Origin: an uncultured bacterium | GTDB taxonomy: Bacteria; Krumholzibacteriota; Krumholzibacteriia; JACNKJ01 | DNA length: 64,000 nt | NCBI GenBank assembly: GCA_964344565.1 | Contig: CAYFNT010000012.1 | Location: 30,648 to 94,647, forward strand | Direction of reading: 5' to 3' | Shown: positions 38,493 through 62,804 of the stretch, in pieces | Layout: every line of letters begins with the position of its first letter | How positions within the stretch are numbered: position 1 is the stretch's first letter | Made by a program: the position numbers and the translations under genes | The notes under the pieces: model-generated | Databases searched by the model: none | What the model was told of the DNA's origin: nothing | The model's input: the letters and a program-made list of their open reading frames with translations, nothing else

Positions 38493-38506
38493 TGTACACG
38501 TGTACA
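38493..38506. promoter_or_regulatory. 14-bp perfect palindrome TGTACACGTGTACA (LacI/GalR-type operator architecture) upstream of GH57-CTD gene
   Basis: TG..CG..CA spacing identical to the cre/LacI-family 14-mer. It lies 68-81 nt upstream of ATG 38574 and about 35 nt upstream of the TGCTATAAT element. The same sequence recurs at 54934 and 62221. Confidence 0.5.
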
Positions 38507-38540
38507 CATCTGGCCGGTAGCGGGCAGCGGGCCGTGGATT

Positions 38541-38549
38541 TGCTATAAT
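38541..38549 (+). promoter_or_regulatory. Extended -10 element TGcTATAAT for the GH57-CTD gene
   Basis: TGCTATAAT at 38541-38549, 25 nt upstream of the ATG. SD AAAGGA. Confidence 0.45.
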
Positions 38550-38573
38550 CGAATCCCAGCCCGAAAGGACACC

Positions 38574-41500
38574 ATGCGCAAGGCACTGCTTCTCCTGTTC
38601 CTCGCCGGGGCGAGTCTGGCTTCCACCGGCGTCCACACGACCTACCTCTGGCACATGCATCAGCCCATCTACTGGCCGGACGAGAGCGTTTGGACACCCG
38701 GACGTTACCAAACCGCCTACGAAACCCTCCTTGGCGGCTATTGCCAGAACGACCTGGCCGAGATCTTCGGCAAGGACGACCGCATCGGCGACTACCAATG
38801 GTATCCCCGGGATGCGGTGGCCAGCATGCTGGACCTGCCCGAGGCGGGAGCGCAGGTGTCCTTCGCGGGGGCGCTGGTCGAGAACATCGAGAGCCTGGCC
38901 GAGGCAGGCTGGGACGGTGGGGTCTACGCGAGCGACTGGACCTCGCACTACCGCGAGGCGAGGGGCTGGACCACGAGCGCCGGCGAGCCCAGGCTGGAGC
39001 CGCTGGTGGTGGGATTCCATCACGCCATCGCGCCGCTCATGGACGATGTGGCTTTCCGCATGGAGCTCGCCTGCGCCAAGGCCATCTACGACGAGGCCTG
39101 GGGCGACTCGAATTTCTCGCGAGGTTTCTTCCCCGCCGAGATGTGCTTCAGCGAGCGCCTCATTCCCGCCCTGGTCGACGCGGGCCTCGACTGGTCGGTG
39201 GTGGGGGATCTGCATATCGCGCGGGCCTGCGAGAACTATCCCTATCAGGCGAATCTGGACAACTGCGACCCGCCCAACCGGGCCGACCAGGTGAATCCGC
39301 CCCAGAGCGACTGGACCAACCACAGCATTCCACGGGGCGTGACGCTCAAAGTGCCCTACCCTTACGGCTTCACGCCGCACCGGGCCGAGTACGTGGACCC
39401 GTCCACTGGCGAGGTTTCGAACCTGGTGGTGGTGCCGGCCGCCAACGCCATGAGTTGGGACGAGGGTTACGGCATGTTCGGCACGGGTTCCATCGACGCC
39501 ATCGCCGGGAGCAACGATCCTGCGCATCCCATGCTGATTCTGCTGGCCCATGACGGCGACAACGCCTGGAGCGGCGGACACAGCTACTACTACGAATCGG
39601 TGCCCAACTTCTCCCACGCCGCCGCGGACGCGGGCTACACGCCGAGCACGGTGGCGACCTATCTCGAACATCATCCGGTTCCGCTCGACGACGTGGTGCA
39701 TGTGGAGGACGGCGGATGGGTGAACGCCGACGGCGACTTCGGCAGCCCGCAATTCATCAACTGGAACTGGCCGCCGGTGGACGCGGCGGGGAACTTCGAC
39801 ATACCCGGCGGATGGGCGGAGGACGAGCGCAACTGGGCCGTGCTCACGGCGGCGCAGAACGTGGTGGAATCCGCCGAGGCCGTGGGCGGCGCGCCCGATC
39901 CCGAGCGCGTGGTCTTCCCCTTGAGCGGGGCCAGCGCCGTGGAGCGGGCCTGGCATTTCCTGCTGGCGGGCTACGAGAGCGGCTACATGTACTACGGCTC
40001 GTCGCTGGACATGGAAGTGAAGGCCACCCTCGCCTGCAATGCGGCCCTCGAGGCGGCCCTGCCCCTGGCCGAGAGCGGTGCCGATATCGTAGCGCCCAGT
40101 ATCTGGCTGCCCCAACGCCTGCCATGGAATCCGGGCGGCAAGGGCGGCGGCAGCCTCTGGGGATATCCCGGCGGCGCGGGCGCGGACATGAGCCGCGACT
40201 TCTTCGTCTGGACCTTCATCCACGACATCTCGGGACTCTCGCGTGTCGAGATCATGGTCCGCGAGGATCTGGACGGCCACAACGATCCCGGCAGCCACGA
40301 CAACGAAATCTACGCGGGGGGGCCTGAGGTGGGCGCCTGGTCGGCCCTGCCCATGAACCATCGCGCGATGCCCCTGGGCGAGCCCTGGGACATCCCGGGC
40401 ATCGATTTCACGGTGCTGCCCGAGCGCATCGCCGACGAGTACTGGATCGAATTGACGGGCTACGGCGATGTGCTGCTGGACTACTACGTGGAGGCCGAGG
40501 ATTCTCTGGGCAACGTGAAGAGGAGTCCCATCCAGCACGTCTACGTGGGCACGGGCGACGCGGGCGGCGACGGTTCGGCATGGTGGGAGCCCGAACTTCC
40601 GGAAGCCGGCGATTGGATCACCGTCTACTACGATCCTGCCGGTGGACCCCTGGACGGCGCGGCGGAGATCATCCTGCACCACGGCATCAACGGCTGGCAG
40701 GAAGTAGGTGATACGCCCATGGACTGGAACCTCGTCGACGAGCACTGGCATAAGGGCATCCAGCTGCCTGAGCACGCGTCGAGTTTCGAGTTCGTCTTCC
40801 ACGACGGCCTCGGCAACTGGGACAACAACGGCGGCGCCGATTGGATCGTGCCCGTGAGCGGCGGAGGCGGCGGCTTCGTCATGGACGGCCTTCTCGATGA
40901 GGGCGTATTGCAGATCTCCGGCGACGGGATGAACCTCTGGGTCGCCCGCGAAGGCGACCAGCTCTATCTCGCGACCGAGGGTACCGGCGCGACGGGGCTC
41001 GATCACTTCCTCTTCCTGCTCGACGAACCGGGCGCTCCAGTTTCCGCACCCTGGGCCAAGGCGGGACAGGTTCTGCCCTGGGCCTACTATCTCGGGGCCG
41101 AGAGCTCCAACGGCTGGTTCGCTTGGTTCGATGCTGGCAGCAATGTGCAGATCGGTCCCGAGTTCTCATCGGCCCAGGGCGAGGTGCTCGAAGGATTGCT
41201 CGATCTCGACTCGCTCTTTGCATCCGTTCCGCCGGAAAGCCTCTGGGTGGCCGCCGCGGGATACGACGATCCCGACGCAGGTTCCCTGATTGCCCAGGCG
41301 CCCTTCGGCGACGGCGACGGCGACATGGAAGCGCACGAGTACTATCTACTCCTGGACCTGTCCACCCGGGTGGACGAGTCGCCCGAGGCGCCGCTCGCGG
41401 TCTCGCTTTATCCGAATCCCTTCAACCCGGATGTCCGCCTGAGTTTGGACAGCCCGGATGGTGACCTGACAATACGCATCTATGACCTGGAAGGCCGCTA

Positions 41501-41660
41501 CGTCGCGACCCTCCACGAGGGGCTTGCTGCGGAGGGTCGCCACATTTTGGGTTGGAACGGACAGAATGCGCGCGGGTACCCCTGCCCTAGCGGGATCTAC
41601 CTGTTCCAGATCAGCTGTGGAACGGAGGCTCGAAGCTTGAAGGGTCTGCTCCTGAAATAA
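38574..41660 (+). CDS. Secreted GH57-family alpha-glucan hydrolase (amylase/pullulanase-like) with starch-binding module(s) and T9SS type-A CTD
   Basis: Signal peptide MRKALLLLFLAGASLAS. GH57 motif TTYLWHMHQPIYWP. CBM25/26-like module (GDWITVYYDPAGGPLDGAAEIILHHGINGWQ). C-terminus YPNPFNPDVRLSL...IRIYDLEGRYVATL...SGIYLFQISCGTEARSLKGLLLK. The antisense 864-aa ORF is rejected. Confidence 0.8.
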   Translation: MRKALLLLFLAGASLASTGVHTTYLWHMHQPIYWPDESVWTPGRYQTAYETLLGGYCQNDLAEIFGKDDRIGDYQWYPRDAVASMLDLPEAGAQVSFAGALVENIESLAEAGWDGGVYASDWTSHYREARGWTTSAGEPRLEPLVVGFHHAIAPLMDDVAFRMELACAKAIYDEAWGDSNFSRGFFPAEMCFSERLIPALVDAGLDWSVVGDLHIARACENYPYQANLDNCDPPNRADQVNPPQSDWTNHSIPRGVTLKVPYPYGFTPHRAEYVDPSTGEVSNLVVVPAANAMSWDEGYGMFGTGSIDAIAGSNDPAHPMLILLAHDGDNAWSGGHSYYYESVPNFSHAAADAGYTPSTVATYLEHHPVPLDDVVHVEDGGWVNADGDFGSPQFINWNWPPVDAAGNFDIPGGWAEDERNWAVLTAAQNVVESAEAVGGAPDPERVVFPLSGASAVERAWHFLLAGYESGYMYYGSSLDMEVKATLACNAALEAALPLAESGADIVAPSIWLPQRLPWNPGGKGGGSLWGYPGGAGADMSRDFFVWTFIHDISGLSRVEIMVREDLDGHNDPGSHDNEIYAGGPEVGAWSALPMNHRAMPLGEPWDIPGIDFTVLPERIADEYWIELTGYGDVLLDYYVEAEDSLGNVKRSPIQHVYVGTGDAGGDGSAWWEPELPEAGDWITVYYDPAGGPLDGAAEIILHHGINGWQEVGDTPMDWNLVDEHWHKGIQLPEHASSFEFVFHDGLGNWDNNGGADWIVPVSGGGGGFVMDGLLDEGVLQISGDGMNLWVAREGDQLYLATEGTGATGLDHFLFLLDEPGAPVSAPWAKAGQVLPWAYYLGAESSNGWFAWFDAGSNVQIGPEFSSAQGEVLEGLLDLDSLFASVPPESLWVAAAGYDDPDAGSLIAQAPFGDGDGDMEAHEYYLLLDLSTRVDESPEAPLAVSLYPNPFNPDVRLSLDSPDGDLTIRIYDLEGRYVATLHEGLAAEGRHILGWNGQNARGYPCPSGIYLFQISCGTEARSLKGLLLK

Positions 41661-41710
41661 GGACTCGGGATGAAAGTGGCCACCTGGGTGATTCGATCCT
41701 GGAAGAGAGA

Positions 41711-43171
41711 GTGGTTTTGCGGATTCTGATCCTGATAATATCAATGATGACAAGCGGATCTGTATACGCACTAACTCTCGATGCAGCGAGGGAGTTTCTG
41801 CAGTGCCTTCGATCATCCCCTGATTCAGCTGAGCAGTTTGTGCATCCCGACGACTTGAAGATTTCTCGTCGATTGGGAATCACCTATCCCGAATCGCAAT
41901 CGAAGGCACTGATCTCCTGGGGATTGACCGAAGAAGAGAGGCGGCGATTGTCCCAGACGACAATCGAGCAGCAGATCCGAATCGATCAGCTGGAAGACGG
42001 CTACTCCAGACTCATCCTCTTTCCAGACGATACCATCGCGTCGCGCTCATGGATCTTCAAGGATGGCAAGCAGGTATCGTCCATCCTCTACAAGGTGAAG
42101 GATTGGGTGCTTCGCGAGTCGAAACATTTCAGGTTTTATCTGAGTGATCCGTCGCGATTCCATGATAAGAATGTCGAGGTGCTCGAGGCATTTCTGGTGG
42201 AGACGGCTGAGTTGCTTGGAATCACGGAATCCCGACTGGAGCGGCTCGAGGACGAGAAGATCATCTATTGCTTCTGCCAGAATCAGGAAGAGATCCGTGA
42301 TCTGACGGGCTTCTTCGCGAGGGGGATGTACATTCTCTCCCATGATCTAATCGTGTCGACCTACAGTTCACACGCCCATGAACTCGCTCATCTCTTGATC
42401 AACTACAGACTTGGCACTCCGCACCTGTTCACTCATCCCATGCTCCTGGAAGGCTTCGCCGTCGCAAGGGGAGGGAGAGGGGGCAGGGCTCCGCGGATTC
42501 AGCATCAATTGGGTGCTTTCTTGCATCGATCCGGTTGGGTGACTCCGGATGATCTGCTGGATGCTGCCTCCTTCTTCCGGCTCAACGCATCCATTTCCTA
42601 TCCGGGGAGCGCCCTGTACAACGAGTTCCTCATCGAATGTCTGGGCATCGAGAAGTACCTGAAGCTCTACCTGGAGTCGGGCGGCGATGCCGAACGAGTC
42701 TCATATCTACGGATCTCTTCAAAGGATTTGCCGGATGAATCCCGCTGGCTGGCCTATCTAGATTCTCAACCCACGATAGGGGCTGTCGCACCGTCGGCTG
42801 GTGCGTTTCCTTCAACTTCGGATCCAGTACTGTTCGAGAACGATCCCGATGCTGATCGCTATAGGTTCGTCCTGCCCGAAGTCGCGGTTCTGGTCGATGG
42901 CTCTGAAGTATCCGACTACAGGAGCTTCCTGTTCAAAGAACTGGTCCCGGACAGGCCCTACTCCGGAGGCCGGTACCTGTTGACCTGTTCACGTGCGGAA
43001 GTCGGGCTGTACGACCTATACACGAATACCATGATCGCCCACTATGCGGCTGCGTTCGCGGAGAATTCTATCGAGATACCCGAGAACGATGGTCGGTACA
43101 GCTTCACAATCGAGGCGGACTTGTTCGATCTGGACATCGATCCACCCCGTTTCGAGTTGGCGAGAGAGTAG
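41711..43171 (+). CDS. Secreted hypothetical protein with HExxH motif (possible zinc metallopeptidase-like); low-GC island
   Basis: GTG start 41711 gives the signal-peptide-like MVLRILILIISMMTSGSVYA. Motif SSHAHELAHLLINYRLG. GC is about 52% versus about 66% for its neighbours. No recognisable family. Confidence 0.5.
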   Translation: MVLRILILIISMMTSGSVYALTLDAAREFLQCLRSSPDSAEQFVHPDDLKISRRLGITYPESQSKALISWGLTEEERRRLSQTTIEQQIRIDQLEDGYSRLILFPDDTIASRSWIFKDGKQVSSILYKVKDWVLRESKHFRFYLSDPSRFHDKNVEVLEAFLVETAELLGITESRLERLEDEKIIYCFCQNQEEIRDLTGFFARGMYILSHDLIVSTYSSHAHELAHLLINYRLGTPHLFTHPMLLEGFAVARGGRGGRAPRIQHQLGAFLHRSGWVTPDDLLDAASFFRLNASISYPGSALYNEFLIECLGIEKYLKLYLESGGDAERVSYLRISSKDLPDESRWLAYLDSQPTIGAVAPSAGAFPSTSDPVLFENDPDADRYRFVLPEVAVLVDGSEVSDYRSFLFKELVPDRPYSGGRYLLTCSRAEVGLYDLYTNTMIAHYAAAFAENSIEIPENDGRYSFTIEADLFDLDIDPPRFELARE

Positions 43172-43203
43172 GCCGCGCTACGTCGATTCAGTGAACCTGG
43201 CCT

Positions 43204-52694: not shown

Positions 52695-52801
52695 GATCCC
52701 TCCCAGGAAAGCGAATCGACAAGCTAACAGATCGCCTATCCATCATCAAGGGTGGTCGACACGGGCCTGGGAACTTGGTAGGAATAGGGGCGGGAGGCCC
52801 C

Positions 52802-55078
52802 ATGAGAACCACCCTGATCGCTCTGATCTCGATACTGTCGGCGGTCCACGCCGAGACTCCGCTGGAAGGCGGCGTGCCCTTCGCGCCCCTGGCGCCCGGT
52901 GAGCTGAGCCGCGAGGTCATCCTGTCCGGCGGCGGGGCCACGCACTTCGCCTGCGAGAGCCACGACGAGCACCGCCGCGCCTACCACGGTCTCTACAATC
53001 GCATGCACGAGTTCCTAGACGGCTGGCGATTCCGCGTGGGGGAGCGGATCCTTCATCCCGCTGACGGTTCCCTCGAACTCTGGCCCTGGACCTTCCATCG
53101 CAGCTACGAAGGCGGGCCGATCGAATCGCTCTTCATGCCGAGGGGTATTCCCGGCGTGATCGTCTCGCTCTCCGGCGCGGCCGGAAACTGCGAGTTCGAA
53201 CCCCACATCGACATGCGTTTCATATGGGACGTTCCCCGCCCCGACTACGAGGTCGAATGGAACGAACGGCTGGGCGCGCTCTTCATCCGCCGAGTCGAAT
53301 TCGAACCGCCGGCGGAAGTGCCACGAGTCGTCGCCATCGTGCCGGGATTCTGGTCCACCTGGCGCTACGCCGACGCCTGGCTTCCCAACGACTACACCCG
53401 CGACAAGGCGCGCCGGGCCATGGAGAAGGCGAACCCATGGATCCCGGGCAGCTTTCACCTGGAGCTTTACGAGGGCGACGTGGCCGATTTCGCCGTGGGC
53501 CTCGGCGCCGATGAACGCGAGGCCTTCGCCGTGGCCCGCGATCTGCTCGACAGGCAGGATCTGCTGCGCGCCGAAGCCCGCGACCACTTCACGGAGCTCT
53601 CGACACGCGTCCCCCGCACCAGTGATGAACGCCTGAACAAGGCTCTCACCTGGGCGCGCTACTCCATGGACCAGCTCATCATGAACTCGCGGGGACCGGG
53701 CATCTACGCGGGCTACCACTGGTTCACCAACTACTGGGGACGCGACACCTTCATCTCGCTGCCGGGCGCCTGCCTGGTCAGCGGCGACTTCGAGCGGGCG
53801 CGCGCCATCCTGGCGAGTTTCGCAGACTATCAGCTCACCGATCCGTCGAATCCGCGCGAAGGGCGCCTGCCCAACATCGTGAATCCCGACAATCTGCAGT
53901 ACGCGGGCGTGGACGGTACCTGGTGGTGGGTGAGGGCCCTGCGCATCTATCTGGACTACACCCGCGACCTGGACTTCATGCGCGAGATGCGTCCGGTGGT
54001 GGACCGGGCGATTGCGGGCGCGCTGCGTCACGCGGTCGACGAACACGGCCTGCTCACCCACGGCGATGGCGAGACCTGGATGGACGCCGGCGGCGAGGTC
54101 AATCCGCGCTCGCCCCGCGGCAACCGCGCCGTGGAAGTCGAGGCCCTGTGGATCGACGGCCTAGATTCGGCCGCCCTTTTCGCCCGTGTGGACGGTGACT
54201 CGGCCGCGATGCGCCGCTACCAGACCCTCGCCGACAAGGCGCGGGCATCATTTCTCGAGTTGTACACCCGGGTGGACGGATTGGGACTCGCCGACCATCT
54301 GAATGTTGACGGAAGTCAGGATCTGCAGATCCGGCCGAATCAGCTGCTTGCGATTACGATTCCAAGAGGCTCTCCACGGAAGAACAGGATCTGGGGAGCG
54401 GAATGGATTCCCGAGGCGATCGAACTCGATGTCGTGAAAACGGTGATGCAGCATCTCGTCAGGGAAAACGGAGTCACTAGTTTGAGCCCATCGGATGATT
54501 CGTGGATTCCTCGACATGTGGATTGGACCAGAAGTCATTTCGATGACGCATACCATAACGGTGACGTGTGGCTATGGCTTTCTGGCGCTGCGATGGAAGC
54601 TAGAGAGGTGGCGAATTGGAGTTTCTATCATCGCACGAGGGAGCAAATGAATGTCCTGATAGAGGACACCATTGAGCATGGGGCCCTAGGTAGCCTCCGG
54701 GAAATCCGTGATGGAGAGCTTTCCCTGAAGGAGGACTATGGGGGCGCTACCAGCCAGGCCTGGTCACTCGCGGAGTTGCTTCGGGTTCAGTTCGAGTCGG
54801 TTCTAGGAATCAAACCTCTCCTCCTGGACAGGTTAGTCCTGTGGGATCCGGCTTCGGTCGGTCTGCATGCCCGAGTATTCTTGGGTGGTCAGGAATGGAG
54901 TGTTTCGCTGGAGGAAGAGAAGCCTTCGAATATTGTACACGTGTACAATGGGTGGAAGTACGTAGGTGGAACATGGCCCGACGGAATCAATGGCTGGGAA
55001 GTACAATCTCCCAATCGTAGCCCAGAGACATTGACCGAGCAGGGGCTGCCCTACAGGGAGTCCGGTGAGGTTTGGTAG
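52802..55078 (+). CDS. Secreted amylo-alpha-1,6-glucosidase / glycogen-debranching enzyme (GDE_C family)
   Basis: Start ATG 52802 (MRTTLIALISILSAVHA signal peptide, SD GGGAGG). GDE_C motifs GYHWFTNYWGRDTFISLPG and YHNGDVWLWLSG. The 3' 830 nt have markedly lower GC (about 52%). Contains the ATTGTACACGTGTACAAT palindrome at 54932-54949. Confidence 0.8.
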   Translation: MRTTLIALISILSAVHAETPLEGGVPFAPLAPGELSREVILSGGGATHFACESHDEHRRAYHGLYNRMHEFLDGWRFRVGERILHPADGSLELWPWTFHRSYEGGPIESLFMPRGIPGVIVSLSGAAGNCEFEPHIDMRFIWDVPRPDYEVEWNERLGALFIRRVEFEPPAEVPRVVAIVPGFWSTWRYADAWLPNDYTRDKARRAMEKANPWIPGSFHLELYEGDVADFAVGLGADEREAFAVARDLLDRQDLLRAEARDHFTELSTRVPRTSDERLNKALTWARYSMDQLIMNSRGPGIYAGYHWFTNYWGRDTFISLPGACLVSGDFERARAILASFADYQLTDPSNPREGRLPNIVNPDNLQYAGVDGTWWWVRALRIYLDYTRDLDFMREMRPVVDRAIAGALRHAVDEHGLLTHGDGETWMDAGGEVNPRSPRGNRAVEVEALWIDGLDSAALFARVDGDSAAMRRYQTLADKARASFLELYTRVDGLGLADHLNVDGSQDLQIRPNQLLAITIPRGSPRKNRIWGAEWIPEAIELDVVKTVMQHLVRENGVTSLSPSDDSWIPRHVDWTRSHFDDAYHNGDVWLWLSGAAMEAREVANWSFYHRTREQMNVLIEDTIEHGALGSLREIRDGELSLKEDYGGATSQAWSLAELLRVQFESVLGIKPLLLDRLVLWDPASVGLHARVFLGGQEWSVSLEEEKPSNIVHVYNGWKYVGGTWPDGINGWEVQSPNRSPETLTEQGLPYRESGEVW
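54932..54949. promoter_or_regulatory. 18-bp perfect palindrome ATTGTACACGTGTACAAT (candidate LacI-family operator) about 150 nt upstream of the malE-like gene
   Basis: Perfect palindrome with the TG-N4-CG-N4-CA core. It also contains a TACAAT -10-like hexamer. It lies inside the 3' end of the GDE gene and upstream of the ABC transporter genes. Confidence 0.5.
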
Positions 55079-55097: not shown

Positions 55098-56342
55098 ATG
55101 AAGAGAGTTCTCGCAATGCTGCCTTCAGTGGCTGTTCTTCTACTTCTCGCCTGCGGCGGCGGAGGGTCCGACGGCAAGCTCTTCATCTGGGAGCAGATGG
55201 ATCCCAGCGAACAGGAACTGCTCGATGAACACCTGGCGCGTTTCATGGAGATGCATCCGGACATCGTCGTCGAGCGCGTGCACTACGAAACCGAGCAGTT
55301 ACGCACCCAGTTCCAGAACGCGGCCCTCGCCGGCGCGGGCCCCGAACTTGTCTACGGACCCGCCGACCAGGTGGGGCCCTTCTCGACCATGGGGCTCATC
55401 GAACCCCTGGACCAGCACTTCAGCCAGGCCAAGCTCGACTCCTTCTACACCGACGCACTGCCTCGCCTCGCCCGCCGGGGCGACGATACGGCCAAGCTCT
55501 GGTGCCTGCCCGACCAGCTGGGGAATCACCTCACGCTATGCTTTAACAAGGCGATGGTACCCCATGCGCCCCAATCGTTTAAGCACTTGGTTGAGATGGG
55601 AAAATACTGGACCAAGGACGAGGACGGCGACGGCCGCCCCGAGACTTACGGCCTGGTCTTCAACCAGAAGGAGCCCTTCTGGCTGGTGCCCTTCCTGGGC
55701 GGATTCGGAGGTTGGGTGGTGGACGAGCAGGGCAACCCGACCCTCGACAGCCGGGCCATGGCCAGCGCCCTCTCCTATGTGCAGTTCCTCAAGTTCGACG
55801 AGGGCATCATGCCGCGCGAGGCCGACTACGAGGTGGCCGACGCGCTTTTCAAGGAGGGCAAGGCGGCCTTCATCATCAACGGACCCTGGTCCTGGCAGCA
55901 GTATCTCGACGCGGGAATCGACCTGGGCCTGACGCCCATCCCGACGCTATTCGGCGGGGGATGGCCCGTACCCATGGTCAGCGCCAAGGGCTACAGCCTC
56001 AACGCCAACCTGCGGGGCGAGAAGCGCGAGCAGGCCCTGGCCCTGCTCGACTACCTCACCAGCGAAGCGGTGCAGGTGGAGAAATCCGCGGCCATGGGCA
56101 TGATCCCCAGCCGCAAGAGCGCGGCCGAAAAGGCCGAGGGCAGCCATCCACTGGTGGGGCCCAGTCGCGCGCAGATCGAGAAGGGGCGGGCCATGCCGGT
56201 CATCCCCGAGATGCGGGCCATCTGGGACGTCATGCGTCCGGCATACCAGGAGGTTCTGGGCAATCGGCTGGAACCTCGCGAGGCGGCCGTCCAGATGCAG
56301 GAGCAGGTAATCAAGAAGATCGAGGAAATGGGCGGAAACTAG
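55098..56342 (+). CDS. ABC transporter substrate-binding lipoprotein, MalE-like (maltose/maltodextrin family 1 SBP)
   Basis: ATG 55098 with SD AAGGAGAG. Lipobox LLLLACGGGGS. SBP_bac_1-type sequence. Confidence 0.8.
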   Translation: MKRVLAMLPSVAVLLLLACGGGGSDGKLFIWEQMDPSEQELLDEHLARFMEMHPDIVVERVHYETEQLRTQFQNAALAGAGPELVYGPADQVGPFSTMGLIEPLDQHFSQAKLDSFYTDALPRLARRGDDTAKLWCLPDQLGNHLTLCFNKAMVPHAPQSFKHLVEMGKYWTKDEDGDGRPETYGLVFNQKEPFWLVPFLGGFGGWVVDEQGNPTLDSRAMASALSYVQFLKFDEGIMPREADYEVADALFKEGKAAFIINGPWSWQQYLDAGIDLGLTPIPTLFGGGWPVPMVSAKGYSLNANLRGEKREQALALLDYLTSEAVQVEKSAAMGMIPSRKSAAEKAEGSHPLVGPSRAQIEKGRAMPVIPEMRAIWDVMRPAYQEVLGNRLEPREAAVQMQEQVIKKIEEMGGN

Positions 56343-56349
56343 CCGCCGT

Positions 56350-56378
56350 TTGACAGGGGCAATGCGGGACCCTACTCT
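56350..56378 (+). promoter_or_regulatory. Candidate sigma70 promoter TTGACA-N17-TACTCT upstream of GH13 amylase gene
   Basis: TTGACA at 56350-56355 and TACTCT at 56373-56378 with a 17-nt spacer, about 35 nt upstream of ATG 56414. Confidence 0.45.
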
Positions 56379-56413
56379 GTTCGGATTCCCGAAGCCCATT
56401 CCATGGAGGCCTC

Positions 56414-59311
56414 ATGCGAAGCGCTATCCTGATTCTCGCCACGGCAATCATATGTCTGGCTCCCGCCGCGATGGCGACCACCGTCACCTTCCACATGGCG
56501 GCCCCGGCAGCGGGTCAGGTCTACCTGGCCGGCACCTTCAACAACTGGAGCGCCAACACCGACATGCTGAGCGACGAGGATGGCGACGGCGTCTTCAGCA
56601 TCACGGTGGAACTCGATCCGGGCGAGTACCAGTACAAGTTCGTCATCGACGGCACCTGGAAGGAAGATCCCCATGCCGCCGACTACGTGGACGACGGTCA
56701 TGGCGGGCGCAACGGCATCGTCGCGGTCGAGGGTGAGGCCATGGAGGTCGGCAACCAGGACGCTCCGGAGAAGAAGCCCGCGGTGAAGAAGCGCGCGCCG
56801 GCCGGATCCCGCGATGTGACATTCAAGCTCGAGCCCAAGATCGGTGGCGTCAGCGAGGTCTACGTCGCCGGCTCCTTCAACGACTGGAACGCCTCGGCCG
56901 ATCGCATGACCGACGAGGACGGCGACGGCGTCTACGAGGTCACGATCTCGCTGCCCAAGGGCGAGCATCCCTACAAGTTCGTGGTGGACGGCAACTGGAT
57001 GGCCGACGAGAACGCCGAGGACTTCATCGACGACGGATTCGGCGGACAGAACTCCATCGTTCTCGTGGGCCTGAGTTCGGAGGACGGCATGAAGCTGCGC
57101 CGAGTACCCTTCATCTTCACGACCGCCGACGAGTACGGAGCGGTCTATCTGGCCGGAACCTTCAATGACTGGAATCCCGGCAAGACCCTCATGGAAAAGG
57201 GAGAAGGCGAGTGGCGCCTGGACCTGCTGCTTCCTCCTGGCGAACATCTCTACAAGTTCGTGGCCGACGGCAAGTGGATCACCGATCGCGATCGCGGCGA
57301 TGCCTTCGTCGATGACGGTCACGGCGGCGAGAACAGCGTGGTGATGGTGGACGACCGCTTCGAGGCCATCGACCGCAAGGTGGGCGACGGCAAGATCGAA
57401 GAGGGCTCCCTGCGCTTCACCCCCGACTTCCCCGATCTGAACCGGTCGGATCCCTCCATCATCGAGGTGAATTTCCGCACTGCGGCCGGCGACGTGGAGA
57501 AGGTGGAGATCGTGGTGGACGGCAAGGTCAAGGCCATGCGGAAGGCAGCCTCCGACGCCGCCGAAGATCTCTGGCGCGCCGACGTGCCCGTGCTCGACGA
57601 CAACGTGTCCCTCGCCATGAGTTTTCTCATCCACGACGGAGGGGAAAAGGTGAAGTTCGGCTACGGCGGTCTGGGCGGCGGGCCCATCCGCGTGCGTCCC
57701 GGCCAGCTCGAGACATTCTACACCCCGGCCTGGGTCGCCGACGGCGTCTTCTACCAGATCTTCCCCGACCGCTTCTTCAACGGCGACAAAGCCAATGATC
57801 CGGACTTCAGCGAGGAATTCTACAAGGGTCTCAACAAGCTTCCGGCCAGCGGTAAGACCAACGACGAGTACTTCCACCTGGAAGAGAACTGGAACGACTA
57901 CCGCGGTCTGACGCGCAGTGCCTATCGCACCGACGGCAAGCCCGATTACTACAGCTTCTACGGCGGCGACATCGAAGGCGTGCGCCAGAAGCTGGACTAC
58001 CTGGTCGATCTCGGCGTGAGCATCATCTACTTCAACCCGGTCACCCTGGGCAAGAGCAACCACAAGTACGACGCCGGCGACTACATGACATTGGATCCCC
58101 ACTTCGGATCGAAGGCGGACTGGAAACGCTTCATCGCCGAGGCCCACGACAAGGGAATCCGCGTGGTGGTGGAGGCCGTCTACAACCATTGCGGCGACAC
58201 CCACTGGGCATTCCAGGACTGCGTGAAAAAGGGGCCCGACAGCGAATACTGGCAGTGGTACGAATGGAAGAACTGGCCTCTGCCCGAGCAGGGCAGCTAC
58301 GAGGCCATCCAGTACTACGATTGCTGGTGGGGCTTCGGGCTTCACCCGAATCTGAACTTCGACAAAACCCGCATTGCCGAGCAGGAGAACGGCGTGCGGG
58401 ACATCGCCGAGGGCGATCCCAACTGGCCGGTGGTGAACCACCTGCTCGACGCCACGGAGTTCTGGCTCACCGAGATGGACGTGGACGGCTTCCGCATGGA
58501 CGTGCCCAACGAGGTGCCCTTCTGGTTCTGGAAGCTCTTCCGCGAGCGCGTTCGCTCCATCAAACCCGACGCCTACCTCGTGGGCGAGCTCTGGAGCACA
58601 GCTCCCGAGTGGGTGGGCAACGACACCTTCGACGCCGTGATGAACTATCGCCATTTCAAGGATCCGGTGAACAACTGGATCGGCCACGGCCGCGGCAACG
58701 CCCAGAGCTTCGAGGCCGGGCTAGCGCCGGGCCGCACCGCCTATCCCAGCCAGGCCGTGCGGGTGATGATGAACCTCATCGACAGCCACGACACCGTGCG
58801 CTTCATCACCACAGCCGGCGGCGACCGCCGGCGCCTGAAGCTCGCCGCGCTGTTCCAGATGAGCTACATGGGCGCGCCCCACATCTGGTATGGCGACGAG
58901 ATCGGCATGGAGGGTCAGCGCGATCCGGACTGTCGACGTCCCTTCTACTGGACCTACGAGGAGGATCCCGGCCGGGTGGAGATGCGCGATTTCTACAAGA
59001 GCGTCACCCATCTGCGTCGCGACAACTCGGCCCTGCGCCGCGGCGACTTCCGTCTGGCCCTGGCCAAGGGCAAGGACTACGCCTTCATGCGCGAGGACTC
59101 AGCCGGCGCTTTCCTGGTGGTGCTGCACAATGACGCGACGCCCGGCTCGGTGGTCGTGGACCTCGGCGCCCTGGGATACTCGGACGGCATCCGGTTCGGT
59201 TCGGCCGCCGGCACCAAGCGCGCACCGGTCTCGCAGCGGTACAAGGTCGAGGGGGGTAAGATCAGCATCCAGATGGAGGCCCTCGAGGGCATCATCCTCC
59301 GGAAGCTCTAG
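56414..59311 (+). CDS. Secreted GH13 alpha-amylase/neopullulanase-type enzyme with three N-terminal CBM48/E-set glycogen-binding modules
   Basis: Signal peptide MRSAILILATAIICLAPAAMA. Three repeats of ..GEYQYKFV(I/V)DG.W..D... GH13 regions YQIFPDRFFNGD, GGDIEGVRQKLDYLVDLGVSIIYFNPV, DGFRMDVPNEV, YLVGELWS and LIDSHDTVRF. Confidence 0.85.
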   Translation: MRSAILILATAIICLAPAAMATTVTFHMAAPAAGQVYLAGTFNNWSANTDMLSDEDGDGVFSITVELDPGEYQYKFVIDGTWKEDPHAADYVDDGHGGRNGIVAVEGEAMEVGNQDAPEKKPAVKKRAPAGSRDVTFKLEPKIGGVSEVYVAGSFNDWNASADRMTDEDGDGVYEVTISLPKGEHPYKFVVDGNWMADENAEDFIDDGFGGQNSIVLVGLSSEDGMKLRRVPFIFTTADEYGAVYLAGTFNDWNPGKTLMEKGEGEWRLDLLLPPGEHLYKFVADGKWITDRDRGDAFVDDGHGGENSVVMVDDRFEAIDRKVGDGKIEEGSLRFTPDFPDLNRSDPSIIEVNFRTAAGDVEKVEIVVDGKVKAMRKAASDAAEDLWRADVPVLDDNVSLAMSFLIHDGGEKVKFGYGGLGGGPIRVRPGQLETFYTPAWVADGVFYQIFPDRFFNGDKANDPDFSEEFYKGLNKLPASGKTNDEYFHLEENWNDYRGLTRSAYRTDGKPDYYSFYGGDIEGVRQKLDYLVDLGVSIIYFNPVTLGKSNHKYDAGDYMTLDPHFGSKADWKRFIAEAHDKGIRVVVEAVYNHCGDTHWAFQDCVKKGPDSEYWQWYEWKNWPLPEQGSYEAIQYYDCWWGFGLHPNLNFDKTRIAEQENGVRDIAEGDPNWPVVNHLLDATEFWLTEMDVDGFRMDVPNEVPFWFWKLFRERVRSIKPDAYLVGELWSTAPEWVGNDTFDAVMNYRHFKDPVNNWIGHGRGNAQSFEAGLAPGRTAYPSQAVRVMMNLIDSHDTVRFITTAGGDRRRLKLAALFQMSYMGAPHIWYGDEIGMEGQRDPDCRRPFYWTYEEDPGRVEMRDFYKSVTHLRRDNSALRRGDFRLALAKGKDYAFMREDSAGAFLVVLHNDATPGSVVVDLGALGYSDGIRFGSAAGTKRAPVSQRYKVEGGKISIQMEALEGIILRKL

Positions 59312-59320
59312 GGGGCTCCC

Positions 59321-60226
59321 TTGGCCGGCACGAGCATGAGCGGAAAAGGGCGGGAGGCGCGGCTGGCCGCGGCCTTCGCCCTGCCCGCCCTCGTGGCCAT
59401 GATGACCGTGGTGCTCTATCCCTTCCTCTACAACGTCTATCTGTCGATCACGGACATGGGCCTCTACACCTGGCGGGATCCGAGCATCCAGAGCCCCATC
59501 TGGAAGAACTACACCGAGGTGTTGCTCAATCCGGAACTCTACGGCGTCTTCCTCAAGACCGTGCTCTGGACGGGCATTAACGTGTTCTTCCACGTGGCGA
59601 TCGGCATCTTCCTGGCGCTCATCCTGAACCAGGCCCTGCCGGGAAAGACGCTTTTCAGGGTGCTGTTGATCCTTCCTTGGGCCATGCCCCAATACATCAG
59701 CGCGCTCACCTGGAAGGGCATGCTCAACTACGAGTGGGGGGCGATCAACGCGCTACTCGGCAAGATCGGTCTACCGGCCATCGCCTGGTCCAGCGATCCC
59801 TTCTGGGCCTTCATGGGCCCGCTCATCACGAACATCTGGTTGGGCTTTCCCTTCATGATGATCATCGCCCTGGGCGGCCTGCAGGCGATTCCTCCCTCGG
59901 TCTACGAGAGCGCCGAGGTGGACGGCGCGGGGCCGGTGCGCAGGTTTTTCAGCGTGACCCTGCCCATGCTCAAGCCCGTGCTGGCGCCGGCGGTGATGCT
60001 CGGCACCATCTGGACCTTCAACAACCTGAACGTGATCTGGCTGGTGAGTAACGGAGGCGAACCGGGGGATCGCACGCATATCCTGGTGAGCTATGTCTAC
60101 AAGGCCGCCTTCACCTACTACCGCTACGGCTATGCGGCGGCTTTCAGCATGCTGATCTTCCTGGTGCTCTTCGGATTCGTCTGGGCGCAGAACCGCCTGG
60201 GCAAGGCCTCGGAGGTGAGCTGGTGA
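59321..60226 (+). CDS. Sugar ABC transporter permease (MalF-like)
   Basis: Six TM helices and EAA-loop region (binding-protein-dependent transport system inner membrane component). ATGA overlap with the next permease. Confidence 0.8.
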   Translation: MAGTSMSGKGREARLAAAFALPALVAMMTVVLYPFLYNVYLSITDMGLYTWRDPSIQSPIWKNYTEVLLNPELYGVFLKTVLWTGINVFFHVAIGIFLALILNQALPGKTLFRVLLILPWAMPQYISALTWKGMLNYEWGAINALLGKIGLPAIAWSSDPFWAFMGPLITNIWLGFPFMMIIALGGLQAIPPSVYESAEVDGAGPVRRFFSVTLPMLKPVLAPAVMLGTIWTFNNLNVIWLVSNGGEPGDRTHILVSYVYKAAFTYYRYGYAAAFSMLIFLVLFGFVWAQNRLGKASEVSW

Positions 60227-61062
60227 TGCGCGGGCGCGGACGAATCGTGAAGCTCTTCCTCAGCTATGCCGTGCTGATCCCCGCGGCGCTGGTGAGCGTG
60301 TTTCCGATTCTGCAGATCCTGAACATCTCGCTGAGGCCCTCGGACCAGTTCGCGAGCACCAGCCTGGGCTTGATTCCCGATGGGGCCACCCTGCGCGCCT
60401 ACGCGGTGATGCTCTTCGAGAAGGACTTTCCCCTGTGGATGATGAACAGCCTCATCGTGTCCCTGGCCACGACCATCATCGGCATCGCCCTGGCCAGCAC
60501 CGCGGGCTACGCCTTCAGCCGTTTCCGCTTCCCGGGGCGACGGGCCGGCCTCATGATCTTCATGGTGAGCCAGATGTTTCCCGCCACCATGCTGCTGCTG
60601 CCCCTGTTCATCCTGATGCGTCGTCTCGGCCTGGTGGACAGTTTCATCGGCGTGACCATCGCCTACGTGGTCACGGCCCTGCCATTCTGCGTGTGGACCA
60701 TGAAGGGCTACTACGACACGATTCCCCGCGAGCTGGAAGAGGCGGCCTGGGTGGACGGCACCAGCGAACTCGGTGCCTTCTTCCGCGTGTCCCTGCCGCT
60801 GGCGAGTCCCGCACTCGTGATCACCGCGCTCTTCAGCTTCATGACCGGCTGGAACGAGTTCATGGTGGCGCGGGTGCTGCTGTCATCGAAACGACTCTTC
60901 ACCCTGCCTCTCGGACTCGAAAACCTCACCGGCACCTTCTCCACCGAATGGGCGAACTACGCCGCCGGCAGCCTCATGGTCTGCATTCCTGTGGTTGTTC
61001 TGTTCGTGGTGCTCAGCAAGTATCTTGTGGGAGGGTTGACCCTGGGAGGAGTGAAGGGGTAG
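60223..61062 (+). CDS. Sugar ABC transporter permease (MalG-like)
   Basis: 279 aa with an EAA motif region (EAAWVDGTSELGAFFRVSLPLASPALV). Confidence 0.8.
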   Translation: MMRGRGRIVKLFLSYAVLIPAALVSVFPILQILNISLRPSDQFASTSLGLIPDGATLRAYAVMLFEKDFPLWMMNSLIVSLATTIIGIALASTAGYAFSRFRFPGRRAGLMIFMVSQMFPATMLLLPLFILMRRLGLVDSFIGVTIAYVVTALPFCVWTMKGYYDTIPRELEEAAWVDGTSELGAFFRVSLPLASPALVITALFSFMTGWNEFMVARVLLSSKRLFTLPLGLENLTGTFSTEWANYAAGSLMVCIPVVVLFVVLSKYLVGGLTLGGVKG

Positions 61063-61125
61063 TCGTCAGTCTCCAGTCTCCAGTCGCCAGTCTCCAGTCT
61101 CCAGTCGCCAGTCTCCAGTCTCCAG
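61063..61125 (+). repeat. Heptamer tandem repeat (TCKCCAG)x9, equivalently a 21-mer x3, filling the gap between convergent malG-like and phosphorylase genes
   Basis: TCGTCAG TCTCCAG TCTCCAG TCGCCAG TCTCCAG TCTCCAG TCGCCAG TCTCCAG TCTCCAG, running from immediately after the TAG stop (61062) to 5 nt before the TGA stop of the minus-strand gene (61131-61133). The core CAGTCTC is related to CAGTTCT of the 28935 array. Confidence 0.8.
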
Positions 61126-61130
61126 CAAGA

Positions 61131-62804
61131 TCAGTAGTATAGGTCGCGATACTCCCGGACCATGCGATCGGCGCTGAAGCGCTCGGGCAGGGTTGCGAGG
61201 GAGCGGCGGATGCGCGCGACCCATGCGAGCGGGACGCCGCTCTCATCGCGGTCGTAGAATTCTGGCAGGACCTGTTCTTCCAGTACGCGGAACAGGGCTT
61301 CGCGGTCGCGGCGATCCTGTTCGTCGGCGTCACCGGGCTCCTCCCGATCGCTGATGGCGAAGCCGTTCTCGCCGTCATAGGCCTCGTCCCACCAACCGTC
61401 CAGAATCGACAGGTTCAGCCCACCGTTCAGCGCGGCCTTCATGCCGCTGGTGCCGCTGGCTTCCAGGGGGCGGCGGGGCGTGTTCATCCAGACATCGACG
61501 CCGGCCACGAGCTTGGCGGCGAGCTCCATGTCATAGTTTTCCAGGAAGAGGATCTTGCCGCGGAAAGGGGCCTCGCCGCAGAGGGCGATGAGCCGCGCCA
61601 TGATGTCCTTGCCCGGCTCGTTGTGGGGGTGGGCCTTGCCCGCGAAGAGGAACTGCAGGGGGCGTTCGGTCGATTCGAGCAGGGCGGACAGGCGCTCGGG
61701 ATCGTCCATGAGCAGCATGGCACGCTTGTAGGGAGCGAAGCGGCGGGCGAATCCGAGGGTGAGGGCGTCAGGATCGAGTCCTTCTTCCGCGCCTTTCAGT
61801 ACAGCGGGCACTCGCGCAGGCAACCAGTCGATGAGTTCGCGACGCAGTTCACAACGCCGATTCCAAAGGGCGGCATCGTCAAGGTCGGCTAGGTCTGCGG
61901 CCTTCGGGGAGGTCCAGGTGCTGCCGTGTACACCATTGGTCACGTGTCCTATTTCGGTCGATCCCTCAAGGCCGTCCCACATGCCGCGTGCCACTTCGCC
62001 GTGTAGCTTCGACACGCCGTTGGAACTGCCGGACATGCGCAATGCCAGCGTGGTCATGCAGAACTGGGAATCGTCGCCATGACGGCCGAGAGCCAGGAAC
62101 TCATCCACGTCTGTCTCGCAGGATTCGATGAAAGGAGCGAGTAGCTCGGCGACCATCGTGGCCTCGAAGCGGTCGTGTCCCGCATCCACTGGAGTGTGGG
62201 TGGTGAAGTGCAGGCGCGATTGTACACGTGTACGGTTTTCGGCGAAGTCGCCGTCGAACTGCTGGGCGAGGGCCAGGGCGGCGAAGGCCACGTGTCCTTC
62301 GTTCAGGTGAATCTCGCAAGGCTCGATGCCGAGAGCCCCGAGAGTGTAGACGCCGCCGACTCCGAGCAGGTATTCCTGCAGCAGTCGCATGCGGCGGTCG
62401 CCGCCGTAGAGGTGATCGGTGAGTGCGCGCAGTTCATCCGAGTTCTGGGGATGATCCGCGTCGAGCAGGTAGAGCTCGCCGCCATGGCGCGTCTCTTCCC
62501 AGACTTTGAAGTGAAGGGTGCCCGCACCCGACTCGAGAGAACCCTCCATGATGAAGCGAAGTCCCAAATCCTCCGGGCTACGACGGTCGTATTCTTCCCG
62601 CTGACGTCCGCCTTCGCCAATGACCTGGCGAAAGTACCCCTCGTGATAGAAGAGCCCCACGCCGACCAGGGGCAGATCGAGGTCGGCCGCGGCCTTCAGG
62701 TGGTCGCCGGCCAGGATGCCCAGGCCGCCGGAGTAGGTGGGCAGGTCGGCCCGCAGGCCGAACTCCATGCTGAAGTAGGCGACGAGGTTCTCAGGATTCG
62801 ACAC
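61131..62804 (-). CDS. Alpha-glucan (glycogen/maltodextrin) phosphorylase, GT35 family, short form (557 aa)
   Basis: [45 protein letters not shown] (phosphorylase N-terminal signature) and the pyridoxal-phosphate region (…[25 protein letters not shown]). Confidence 0.8.
62219..62235. promoter_or_regulatory. Partial copy (15/18) of the ATTGTACACGTGTACAAT palindrome inside the phosphorylase coding region
   Basis: gATTGTACACGTGTACgg. The 14-mer core matches 13/14. It lies about 570 nt into the minus-strand gene. Confidence 0.3.

What the first reader, a model, noticed from the sequence alone, without database searches (positions are those of the whole stretch)
38493..62235. Recurrent palindrome ATTGTACACGTGTACAAT marks an alpha-glucan regulon (candidate LacI/GalR-family operator)
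There are two perfect copies of the 14-mer TGTACACGTGTACA, at 38493 and 54934. The second extends to a perfect 18-mer. A 13/14 copy lies at 62221. Three near-identical 14-mers in 64 kb of about 65% GC DNA is very unlikely by chance. All copies lie within or next to starch/glycogen genes: upstream of the GH57-CTD gene, upstream of the malEFG and GH13 cluster, and inside the phosphorylase gene. An extra half-site TTGTACAC lies at 54260. The TG-N4-CG-N4-CA layout is the signature of LacI-family (MalR/CcpA-like) operators. No LacI-family gene is present in the window.
Basis: seen in the sequence. Interest (0 to 1): 0.65.

Follow-up and report, generated by a model that had tools for sequence, protein, structure and literature searches.

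The report
Strain-specific palindrome in starch-gene cluster
A 14-18 base palindrome really does occur three times inside one starch/glycogen gene cluster of an uncultured Krumholzibacteriota bacterium and is most likely a binding site for an unidentified regulatory protein, but its assignment to the LacI family and to a conserved "regulon" is not backed by the comparative evidence.

Summary
TGTACACGTGTACA is exact at 38493 and 54934 and 13/14 at 62221 (0.01 expected), and an independent assembly reproduces it. All three copies lie in the 24-kb alpha-glucan cluster; about 58 kb of flanking DNA from the same population has none (p~0.03).

The even palindrome with a central CG fits LacI/GalR operators, and site 1 sits about -56 from a conserved extended -10 promoter. 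However:
- Two of the three sites are inside coding sequence.
- The cluster's main divergent promoters carry no copy.
- No LacI-family gene, or any regulator gene, is found in about 82 kb. None is found in 62 related glucan loci either.
- Sites 1 and 2 are absent from the same positions in every close relative.
- Only the site inside the phosphorylase gene is retained (13/14 in three relatives). It is coding there, though built from rare codons.

Best reading (about 0.5): recently gained high-affinity sites for one dimeric DNA-binding protein encoded elsewhere, probably a transcription factor. Main rival (about 0.2): a lineage-specific iterated palindrome unrelated to transcription. A second clade shows a different repeated palindrome, TTGCGCCGGCGCAA. 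A whole-MAG motif scan would decide.

The parts
38492..38507 (.). Site 1: TTGTACACGTGTACAC, with a perfect 14-mer core at 38493-38506. It is intergenic. Its centre is 44.5 nt upstream of the -10 hexamer, about -56 from the inferred transcription start, and -81..-68 from the ATG at 38574.
   Evidence: It is identical in the independent assembly L149. It is absent from the orthologous promoters of L067, L154, L155 and L156.
38541..38549 (+). Extended -10 promoter TGCTATAAT of the GH57-CTD operon.
   Evidence: The same TGnTAnnnT element sits at the same place in about 20 orthologous upstream regions. The transcription start itself is inferred, not shown.
38574..43171 (+). Operon downstream of site 1. 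It holds a secreted GH57 + CBM53 + FlgD_ig/T9SS C-terminal-domain enzyme (38574-41660) and a secreted HExxH protein (41711-43171).
54932..54949 (.). Site 2: the perfect 18-mer ATTGTACACGTGTACAAT. It lies inside the 3' tail of the GDE_C gene, encoding N-I-V-H-V-Y-N, and -164..-151 from the malE ATG at 55098.
   Evidence: It lies in a low-GC (53%) segment, 54353-55146, that has no detectable DNA homology to relatives. It is absent in L002, L003 and L005. Four of its seven codons are non-preferred; P(codons|peptide) = 5.8e-5.
55098..61062 (+). Genes downstream of site 2: a malE-like binding protein, a GH13 enzyme with three CBM48 plus X25 domains, malF and malG.
62219..62234 (.). Site 3: ATTGTACACGTGTACG (13/14 over the core). 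It lies inside the phosphorylase gene on the minus strand, at codons 191-195: CGT ACA CGT GTA CAA = R-T-R-V-Q.
   Evidence: It is retained at 13/14 in L005, L003 and L153. All five codons are rare (3-9% usage). P(codons|peptide) = 1.2e-6, the 9th most extreme of 15,096 five-codon runs.
61131..62804 (-). Short (557 aa) alpha-glucan phosphorylase gene that contains site 3.
52716..52784 (.). Divergent promoter-like blocks between the leftward seven-gene operon and the GDE gene. On the minus strand, TGTTAGCTT at 52729-52721. On the plus strand, TCGACA-17-TAGGAA at 52756-52784. They are conserved in four species and carry NO copy of the palindrome. This is a negative part of the picture.
   Evidence: No match with up to 3 mismatches lies in the promoter blocks themselves; the nearest is at 51629.

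Best explanation
The three copies are high-affinity binding sites for one homodimeric, sequence-specific DNA-binding protein. Its half-site is ATTGTACAC. It is encoded outside the roughly 82 kb recovered.

The protein is most probably a transcription factor that links three alpha-glucan transcription units: the GH57-CTD operon, malE-GH13-malFG, and the phosphorylase gene.

Shown:
- The sites exist, are non-random, and are reproducible across assemblies.
- They are confined to the glucan cluster.
- They use disfavoured codons where they are coding.
- The phosphorylase site is old, being present at 13/14 in four species.
- The two perfect sites are new to this lineage. They arose in fast-evolving, low-GC stretches just upstream of operon starts.

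Inferred:
- At the GH57-CTD promoter the protein sits just upstream of the -35 region, at about -56. From there it could repress through RNA polymerase contact, as GalR does at OE (-60.5), or activate in the class-I manner.
- At the two intragenic sites it would act as a roadblock, or on a weak internal malE promoter.

The protein family is unresolved. LacI/GalR-like geometry is the best single guess.
For: - Statistics: 3 matches against 0.01 expected. There are only 6 perfect 14-nt palindromes in the window and two are identical.
- No extended flank similarity, so this is a short protein-sized site, not a repeat element.
- It is not an assembly artefact.
- All three copies lie in the 24.3-kb glucan cluster. 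There are no copies with up to 3 mismatches in the 9.4 kb upstream or 8.8 kb downstream of the window, nor with up to 2 mismatches in window 1-38,000. (24.3/82.2)^3 = 0.026.
- DNA-level selection is suggested by runs of rare codons at sites 2 and 3. ACA and CGT are retained in all four species, although the peptide is variable in the wider family.
- Site 1 lies at a fixed, sensible distance from a promoter whose -10 is conserved in about 20 orthologues.
- An even palindrome with a central CG matches the LacI-family rule.
- From established knowledge, E. coli GalR acts from OE at -60.5 and from an intragenic OI. LacI uses O2 inside lacZ and O3 in the end of lacI.
Against: - No regulator gene of any family is seen in about 82 kb, so there is no candidate binding protein.
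- Two of the three sites are intragenic and far from promoters. Site 2 is about 130 nt from the nearest -10-like element. Site 3 is 570 nt into a gene.
- The main divergent promoters of the cluster lack the motif.
- Sites 1 and 2 are not conserved in any relative.
- Retention of site 3 is not significantly above the synonymous background: 3 of 4 and 4 of 5 codons against 36% and 50%.
- The association with glucan genes rests on three sites and 82 kb (p about 0.03).
Confidence: 0.5

Rival explanations
1. The palindrome is the operator of a LacI/GalR-family (MalR/CcpA-like) repressor. The repressor is released by maltodextrin and defines an alpha-glucan regulon.
For: - Even palindrome with a central CG.
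- 12 of 14 positions agree with the cre consensus TGWAANCGNTNWCA, and the half-site resembles gal OE GTGTAAACG. Both comparisons are my own, from memory.
- Site 1 falls in the -140..-30 zone where more than 75% of LacI sites lie.
- The targets are sugar genes.
- A distant GH57 locus does carry an adjacent lacI-type gene with a classic operator, TTCGTAACGTTACGAA (L123 and L124).
Against: - tblastn with LacI and CcpA finds no family member in the window, in the extra same-genome DNA fetched by then (L001, L147), or in any of the 62 GDE-centred relatives' loci. It easily detects the two distant ones at 27-28% identity.
- About three quarters of local LacI regulators are autoregulated and sit next to their targets.
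- Fewer than 1% of LacI sites are in coding DNA, yet here 2 of 3 are.
- Sites 1 and 2 are not conserved in orthologous loci.
- The layout is shared with other families.
Confidence: 0.2
2. The palindrome is a lineage-specific iterated palindrome, or the site of a non-transcriptional DNA-binding system. Candidates include something HIP1/REP-like, or something ParB/Noc/KorB-, SlmA- or MatP-like. Its position in glucan genes would then be a sampling accident.
For: - The copies are near-identical, which is not typical of operator sets.
- They lie in coding and non-coding DNA alike, without a fixed relation to promoters.
- They are lineage-specific.
- A second Krumholzibacteriia clade shows the same behaviour with an unrelated palindrome, TTGCGCCGGCGCAA. 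It has 9 perfect and 2 one-mismatch copies in about 66 kb, next to a sigma-54 activator and other non-glucan genes.
- The centre CACGTG is that of parS (10 of 16 match, my comparison).
Against: - No copies are found in about 58 kb of neighbouring non-glucan DNA of the same genome.
- No canonical parS, ori, parAB or other partner genes are present (and the gene calls in 13, 37, 53, 63).
- The density of 3 per 82 kb is far below that of known iterated palindromes.
- Two of the sites lie just upstream of operon starts.
Confidence: 0.2
3. Only the two perfect copies are functional and related. The phosphorylase copy is an unrelated piece of conserved coding sequence that happens to resemble them.
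For: - The site is coding and lies in a well conserved stretch (88% local DNA identity to L003).
- Its retention is not significantly above background.
- Its relatives carry no other copy in 32-40 kb of their glucan loci.
Against: - A 13/14 match is expected only 0.01 times in 64 kb.
- It consists of five consecutive rare codons, P = 1.2e-6.
- The R/C-T-R-V-Q peptide is not conserved in the wider phosphorylase family.
Confidence: 0.1
4. The two perfect copies are attL/attR-type or invertase crossover sites bounding a 16.4-kb mobile or invertible segment (38507-54932).
For: A perfect 15-nt repeat flanks a discrete segment. A palindrome is at once a direct and an inverted repeat.
Against: - The segment's genes are in the same order and orientation in the relatives RRYU, L003/L154 and L005, which lack the repeats.
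- No integrase or recombinase gene is present in about 82 kb.
- The site has no asymmetric spacer of the kind tyrosine recombinases use.
Confidence: 0.03

Closest known systems
LacI/GalR-family operators (E. coli gal OE/OI, lac O1-O3, Bacillus cre, Thermobifida CelR box TGGGAGCGCTCCCA)
   Same: - Even palindrome with a central CG.
- 14-18 bp long.
- The targets are sugar genes.
- One copy lies upstream of the -35 region, as gal OE does at -60.5.
- Other copies lie inside neighbouring genes, as lac O2/O3 and gal OI do.
- The same perfect 14-mer recurs at several genes, as the CelR box does.
   Different: - No family member is encoded nearby or in related loci.
- There is no partner operator within looping distance.
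- Positions 5 and 10 differ from the AA/TT of most family motifs.
- Two of the three sites are deep in coding DNA or far from promoters.
- There is no cross-species conservation at sites 1 and 2.
AraR / GntR-family boxes (ATTTGTACGTACAAAT; PMC1950556)
   Same: The outer arms TTGTAC/GTACAA are identical. The generic GT...AC signature is present. The target is a sugar regulon with several boxes per regulon, some of them cooperative.
   Different: The arms are 4 bp further apart here (ACGT inserted). No GntR-type gene was found. AraR boxes sit in promoters.
CopY/BlaI/MecI 'cop box' TACAnnTGTA (PMC7253601)
   Same: The central 10 bases, TACACGTGTA, are a perfect cop box.
   Different: None of the four specified flanking positions of the refined 16-mer RNYKACANNTGTMRNY is met. 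No cop/bla genes and no Penicillinase_R regulator are present.
YefM-YoeB / Axe-Txe operators (paired TGTACA cores; PMC1802561)
   Same: Two TGTACA hexamers.
   Different: The hexamers are 8 bp apart centre to centre, not 12 bp. There is no toxin-antitoxin operon next to any copy.
Chromosomal parS (TGTTNCACGTGAAACA) and other intragenic organising sites (NBS, matS, KorB OB)
   Same: A 16-bp perfect palindrome with a CACGTG centre. There are few near-identical copies, kilobases apart, and often inside genes.
   Different: Only 10 of 16 positions match parS. There is no ori, parAB or noc context. The copies are restricted to one functional gene cluster in the DNA available.
Highly iterated palindromes (cyanobacterial HIP1 GCGATCGC) and the TTGCGCCGGCGCAA copies seen here in loci L027/L034/L055/L064
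   Same: Lineage-specific, perfectly repeated palindromes found in genes and between them.
   Different: HIP1 is 8 bp long and occurs thousands of times per genome. Here there are 3 copies in 82 kb, all in one cluster.

Membership tests
LacI/GalR-family operator | Even-length palindrome (16-22 nt) with a central CG pair | tested here: met
   The core TGTACA-CG-TGTACA extends to 16-18 nt at site 2. The rule comes from PMC4052901.
LacI/GalR-family operator | Site lies in the promoter zone, about -140 to -30 from the start codon, and is rarely in coding DNA (<1%) | tested here: inconclusive
   Site 1 meets it (-81..-68). Site 2 is at -164..-151, inside the GDE gene. Site 3 is at +571..+584 inside the phosphorylase gene.
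LacI/GalR-family operator | A cognate LacI-family regulator gene, usually adjacent and autoregulated | tested here: not met
   None is found in about 82 kb of this genome or in the 62 GDE-centred related loci (tblastn, Pfam and gene calls). The rest of the genome is not available.
LacI/GalR-family operator | Sites conserved upstream of orthologous operons in related genomes (phylogenetic footprint) | tested here: not met
   Site 1 is absent in L067, L154, L155 and L156. Site 2 is absent in L002, L003 and L005. Only the intragenic site 3 is retained.
LacI/GalR-family operator | Binding by the regulator, relieved by a sugar effector | not testable with these tools
   Needs EMSA or DAP-seq.
CopY/BlaI cop box | Core TACAnnTGTA | tested here: met
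   TACACGTGTA is in all three copies.
CopY/BlaI cop box | Refined 16-mer RNYKACANNTGTMRNY, located upstream of a cop/bla operon with a Penicillinase_R repressor | tested here: not met
   Flank positions R1, Y3, R14 and Y16 are all violated by TTGTACACGTGTACAA (consensus). No such genes were seen in the Pfam scans.
AraR/GntR-type box | 16-bp ATTTGTACGTACAAAT-like palindrome with adjacent arms | tested here: not met
   The arms are identical but separated by an extra ACGT (one search compared).
YefM/Phd antitoxin operator | Paired TGTACA cores 12 bp apart, within about 80 bp upstream of a toxin-antitoxin operon | tested here: not met
   The spacing is 8 bp and no toxin-antitoxin genes are present.
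parS / ParB centromere | Match to TGTTNCACGTGAAACA, near the origin with parAB | tested here: not met
   10 of 16 positions are identical. No canonical parS is in the window or the loci. There is no turn in GC skew. No parAB appears in the gene calls.
Dispersed iterated palindrome (HIP/REP-like) | Many copies genome-wide, independent of gene function | tested here: inconclusive
   There are no copies in about 58 kb of flanking DNA, but only about 82 kb of the genome could be read.
att / recombinase crossover sites | Repeats bound a segment that is absent, inverted or mobile in relatives, with a recombinase gene present | tested here: not met
   The segment is syntenic in relatives that lack the repeats, and there is no recombinase.

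The most novel reading that the evidence does not exclude
Krumholzibacteriia lineages each carry their own perfectly repeated palindrome. This organism has TTGTACACGTGTACAA. The L055 clade has ACTTGCGCCGGCGCAAGT. RRYU has a single CTCGGAGGCTCCGAG at the very same promoter position.

This could reflect one of two things:
- Unusually fast co-turnover of a regulator and its operators around the glucan locus.
- An undescribed class of iterated palindromes that includes conserved intragenic copies kept against codon preference.

Either would be the first cis-element system described for this uncultured phylum.
Probability: 0.15. Interest if true: 0.55.

Novelty: new member of a known kind. Interest (0 to 1): 0.3.

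Why it matters
If the sites are operators, they give a first experimental handle on gene regulation in Candidatus Krumholzibacteriota. An 18-mer bait could fish out the regulator. They would also be an example of a regulon being extended by two newly evolved perfect sites, while an older site inside a gene persists.

If the sites turn out to be iterated palindromes, the finding cautions against reading any repeated palindrome in a functional cluster as a regulon marker.

Either way the practical value is modest until the whole genome is scanned.

Tried and rejected
- Mobile element or MITE: rejected. Local alignment of the three neighbourhoods shows nothing beyond 15-17 nt, and there are no matches in other loci.
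- Assembly artefact: rejected.
- Conserved protein motif forcing the DNA at site 2: rejected. The GDE tail is hypervariable.
- Foreign, horizontally acquired patch carrying site 2: rejected. The same low-GC patch exists in L002, L003 and L005.
- attL/attR island or invertible segment: rejected on synteny.
- RNA-level element: nothing in Rfam near the sites. Site 1 lies upstream of its promoter.
- Sigma-54 promoter or enhancer reading: by eye, only a weak GG-N10-GC lies directly beside site 1 and none lies downstream of site 2. Not pursued.
- Regulator hidden among the cluster's unannotated genes: relaxed Pfam scans gave none. The 41711-43171 product is a secreted HExxH protein.
- A different shared operator in relatives: no repeated palindrome in L002, L003, L005, L006, L007 or L010. 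The conserved blocks in the divergent intergenic region are promoter-like and single-copy.
- Literature: the 14-, 12- and 10-mers appear only as eukaryotic primers or constructs.
- Viral, plasmid and E. coli collections, structure prediction and covariance models were not used, because none bears on a 14-bp DNA site.
Full report
**Observation**

TGTACACGTGTACA occurs exactly at 38493 and 54934, and with one mismatch at 62221. No other match with up to 2 mismatches exists on either strand, against 0.01 expected from shuffles. The repeat finder recovers the same three as a 15-mer family.

The window contains only six perfect 14-nt palindromes, and two of them are this sequence. Site 2 extends to the perfect 18-mer ATTGTACACGTGTACAAT. 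Local alignment of the three neighbourhoods shows no similarity beyond 15-17 nt. The unit is therefore a short site, not a repeat element.

A contig from another sample is 100% identical over 15,959 bp including site 1. Two further assemblies reproduce site 3. The extra half-site at 54260 exists but is at chance level.

**Context**

The source is a 96.9-kb metagenome contig, ENA ERZ930068. Related loci are titled Candidatus Krumholzibacteriota or Krumholzibacteriia.

Positions 38.5-62.8 kb form an alpha-glucan cluster:
- A secreted GH57 + CBM53 + T9SS-CTD enzyme with a secreted HExxH protein, on the plus strand.
- A leftward seven-gene operon ending in a GH57 amylase/4-alpha-glucanotransferase.
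- GDE_C, malE, a GH13 with CBM48/X25 domains, malF and malG, on the plus strand.
- A short phosphorylase, on the minus strand.

The three sites sit as follows:
- Site 1 is intergenic, -81..-68 from the GH57-CTD ATG. It ends 37 nt upstream of the -10 hexamer of the extended -10 element TGCTATAAT. That TGnTAnnnT element recurs at the same place in about 20 orthologous upstream regions. The site centre is therefore at about -56 from the inferred start.
- Site 2 is inside the last 50 codons of the GDE gene, about 157 nt before the malE ATG.
- Site 3 covers codons 191-195 of the phosphorylase gene.

**Same-genome distribution**

Two look-ups added DNA from the same population: 9.4 kb upstream of the window (L147) and 8.8 kb downstream (L150). 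Neither has a copy with up to 3 mismatches, and neither has a regulator gene.

All three copies therefore fall in 24.3 kb out of about 82 kb. If placement were uniform, p would be about 0.026. This is suggestive, not strong.

The conserved divergent promoter-like blocks at 52716-52784 serve most of the cluster's genes. They carry no copy.

**Comparative test**

I fetched 62 GDE-centred loci from GTDB genomes, 80 GH57-CTD-centred metagenome loci, and several contigs by exact protein look-up. Together these total 1.9 Mb.

The motif with up to 2 mismatches appears in only two kinds of place:
- The orthologous phosphorylase position in L005 (TGTACACGTGTACG), in L003 and in RRYU/L153 (both TGTACACGTGTCCA).
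- One stray 2-mismatch hit.

Site 1 is absent from the orthologous promoter in four relatives, although the -10 and the start of the gene align well. Site 2 is absent in three relatives. The GDE C-terminal tail is hypervariable in all eleven homologues aligned.

Both new sites lie in stretches that have lost DNA-level homology to relatives: 38339-38559 and 54353-55146. The second stretch is a low-GC patch, and the relatives share that low GC. It is therefore a fast-evolving region, not a foreign insert.

**Is site 3 more than coding sequence?**

Its five codons, CGT ACA CGT GTA CAA, have usages of 9, 5, 9, 3 and 9%. The probability of these codons given the peptide is 1.2e-6. This is the 9th most extreme of 15,096 five-codon runs.

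The peptide (R/C)TRVQ is conserved only in the four closest species. It is variable in the 50%-identical homologues.

Codon retention is 3 of 4 against L003 and 4 of 5 against L005. The backgrounds for A/T-ending codons are 36% and 50%. This leans towards a DNA-level constraint but is not significant.

Site 2 likewise uses four non-preferred codons (P = 5.8e-5).

**Which protein?**

No regulator gene is visible in about 82 kb.

tblastn with LacI and CcpA finds no family member in the window or in any of the 62 GDE-centred loci. It does detect lacI-type genes at 27-28% identity next to GH57 in two distant AT-rich loci. Those loci have a classic operator, TTCGTAACGTTACGAA.

The LacI-family survey (PMC4052901) supports the central-CG, even-palindrome rule. 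It also reports that:
- More than 75% of sites lie -140..-30 from the start codon.
- Fewer than 1% lie in coding DNA.
- About three quarters of local regulators are autoregulated.

The same 14-mer also fits features of other families:
- It contains a perfect CopY/BlaI core, but fails all four specified flank positions of the refined consensus.
- It has AraR-type arms at the wrong spacing.
- It has YefM-type TGTACA hexamers at 8 bp rather than 12 bp.

No paper in the library describes the sequence as a bacterial site. The family is therefore open. LacI/GalR geometry, and the GalR OE-like position of site 1, make it the best single guess. That comparison is from established knowledge, not tested here.

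**A parallel that strengthens the main rival**

A search for repeated perfect palindromes across all the loci found one other case. TTGCGCCGGCGCAA occurs as 9 perfect and 2 one-mismatch copies in four mutually related loci of another clade (L027, L034, L055, L064). It is absent everywhere else.

In L055 the copies are placed as follows:
- Two lie between a sigma-54 activator gene and the next ORF.
- One lies inside the activator gene.
- One lies 41 nt upstream of a -10 element that precedes the GDE gene.

RRYU has a single perfect CTCGGAGGCTCCGAG at the same distance from the GH57-CTD promoter as site 1. This was noticed post hoc and may be chance.

Lineage-specific perfect palindromes are thus a recurring feature near this locus. 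That fits either fast operator turnover or iterated palindromes.

**Verdict**

| Reading | Confidence |
|---|---|
| Recently gained binding sites of one dimeric DNA-binding protein, probably a transcription factor for glucan genes | about 0.5 |
| The LacI-family version specifically | about 0.2 |
| An iterated or non-transcriptional palindrome | about 0.2 |

The finding is a new member of a known kind and of modest interest. A whole-MAG motif scan would settle it.

Noticed in passing
L055:9561, 13628, 13719, 13962; L034:12966, 13648, 15360, 15482; L064:6018, 7772; L027:8264: A different perfect 14-bp palindrome, TTGCGCCGGCGCAA (often ACTTGCGCCGGCGCAAGT), recurs 11 times in four related loci of another Krumholzibacteriia clade. 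It occurs nowhere else in 1.9 Mb. In L055 it flanks and enters a sigma-54 activator gene, and one copy lies 41 nt upstream of a -10 element before the GDE gene.
   Followed up: partly
L067:5924-5938: The relative RRYU has a single perfect palindrome, CTCGGAGGCTCCGAG. It ends 13 nt upstream of the -35-like GAGGCA of the GH57-CTD promoter. This is the same place where the window has TGTACACGTGTACA. It is single-copy in 40 kb of that genome and may be chance.
   Followed up: partly
window 54300-55200: The last ~240 codons of the GDE gene plus the malE signal-peptide region form a low-GC (52-57% against 64-70%) patch with no DNA-level homology to relatives. The very C-terminal ~90 aa are hypervariable at the protein level. 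The relatives show the same GC dip.
   Followed up: yes
window 43200-64000 compared with L005: Identity to the closest relative is mosaic. It is 82-84% nt left of 54.35 kb but 91% right of 55.15 kb. The phosphorylase is 90.7% identical at the protein level, and its upstream intergenic region is nearly identical. This hints at recombination between lineages.
   Followed up: no
window 61061-61125: A heptamer tandem repeat (CAGTCTC/CAGTCGC, 8.4 copies; also readable as 21-mer x3) fills the gap between the convergent ends of malG and the phosphorylase gene.
   Followed up: no
window 1018-1117 (minus strand): Rfam PYLIS_3 (pyrrolysine insertion sequence of mttB) matches at threshold (38.3 bits against 38). 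It lies inside an MttB-family gene (596-2062) that has no in-frame stop, so this is a non-pyrrolysine homologue. B12-binding and methyltransferase genes follow it in L147.
   Followed up: no
window 38200-38340: An intergenic block is strongly conserved with L067. It contains a minus-strand promoter-like TTTACA-17-TATCTT (38283 to 38255) for the ferredoxin/POR operon. A small RNA is not excluded.
   Followed up: no
window 38541-38549, 52721-52729, 52776-52784, 55070-55078, and the upstream regions of about 20 loci (L067-L117): Promoters in this lineage look like extended -10 elements, TGnTAnnnT, with weak or absent -35 hexamers.
   Followed up: partly
window 41711-43171: A secreted protein with an HExxH motif and atypical codon usage follows the GH57-CTD gene in this organism. 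Relatives (RRYU, L154) have a GT2 glycosyltransferase on the other strand at that place.
   Followed up: partly
window 57351-57368 and 62159-62176: An 18-nt perfect reverse-complement match links the GH13 gene and the phosphorylase gene. Both stretches encode D-R-F-E-A with preferred codons. It is probably a coincidence of a shared peptide and codon bias.
   Followed up: no
window 45270-52694 (minus strand): Six genes of the leftward glucan operon have no Pfam assignment, or only carbohydrate-binding (CBM48/X25) or CarboxypepD_reg domains. This may be an uncharacterised surface starch-binding apparatus, conserved in L002, L003 and L005.
   Followed up: no
window 10357-19518 (minus strand): A 3053-aa protein carries two GH94 supersandwich domains, a GH94 catalytic domain and a glucoamylase-like domain. 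This resembles a cyclic beta-1,2-glucan synthase.
   Followed up: no
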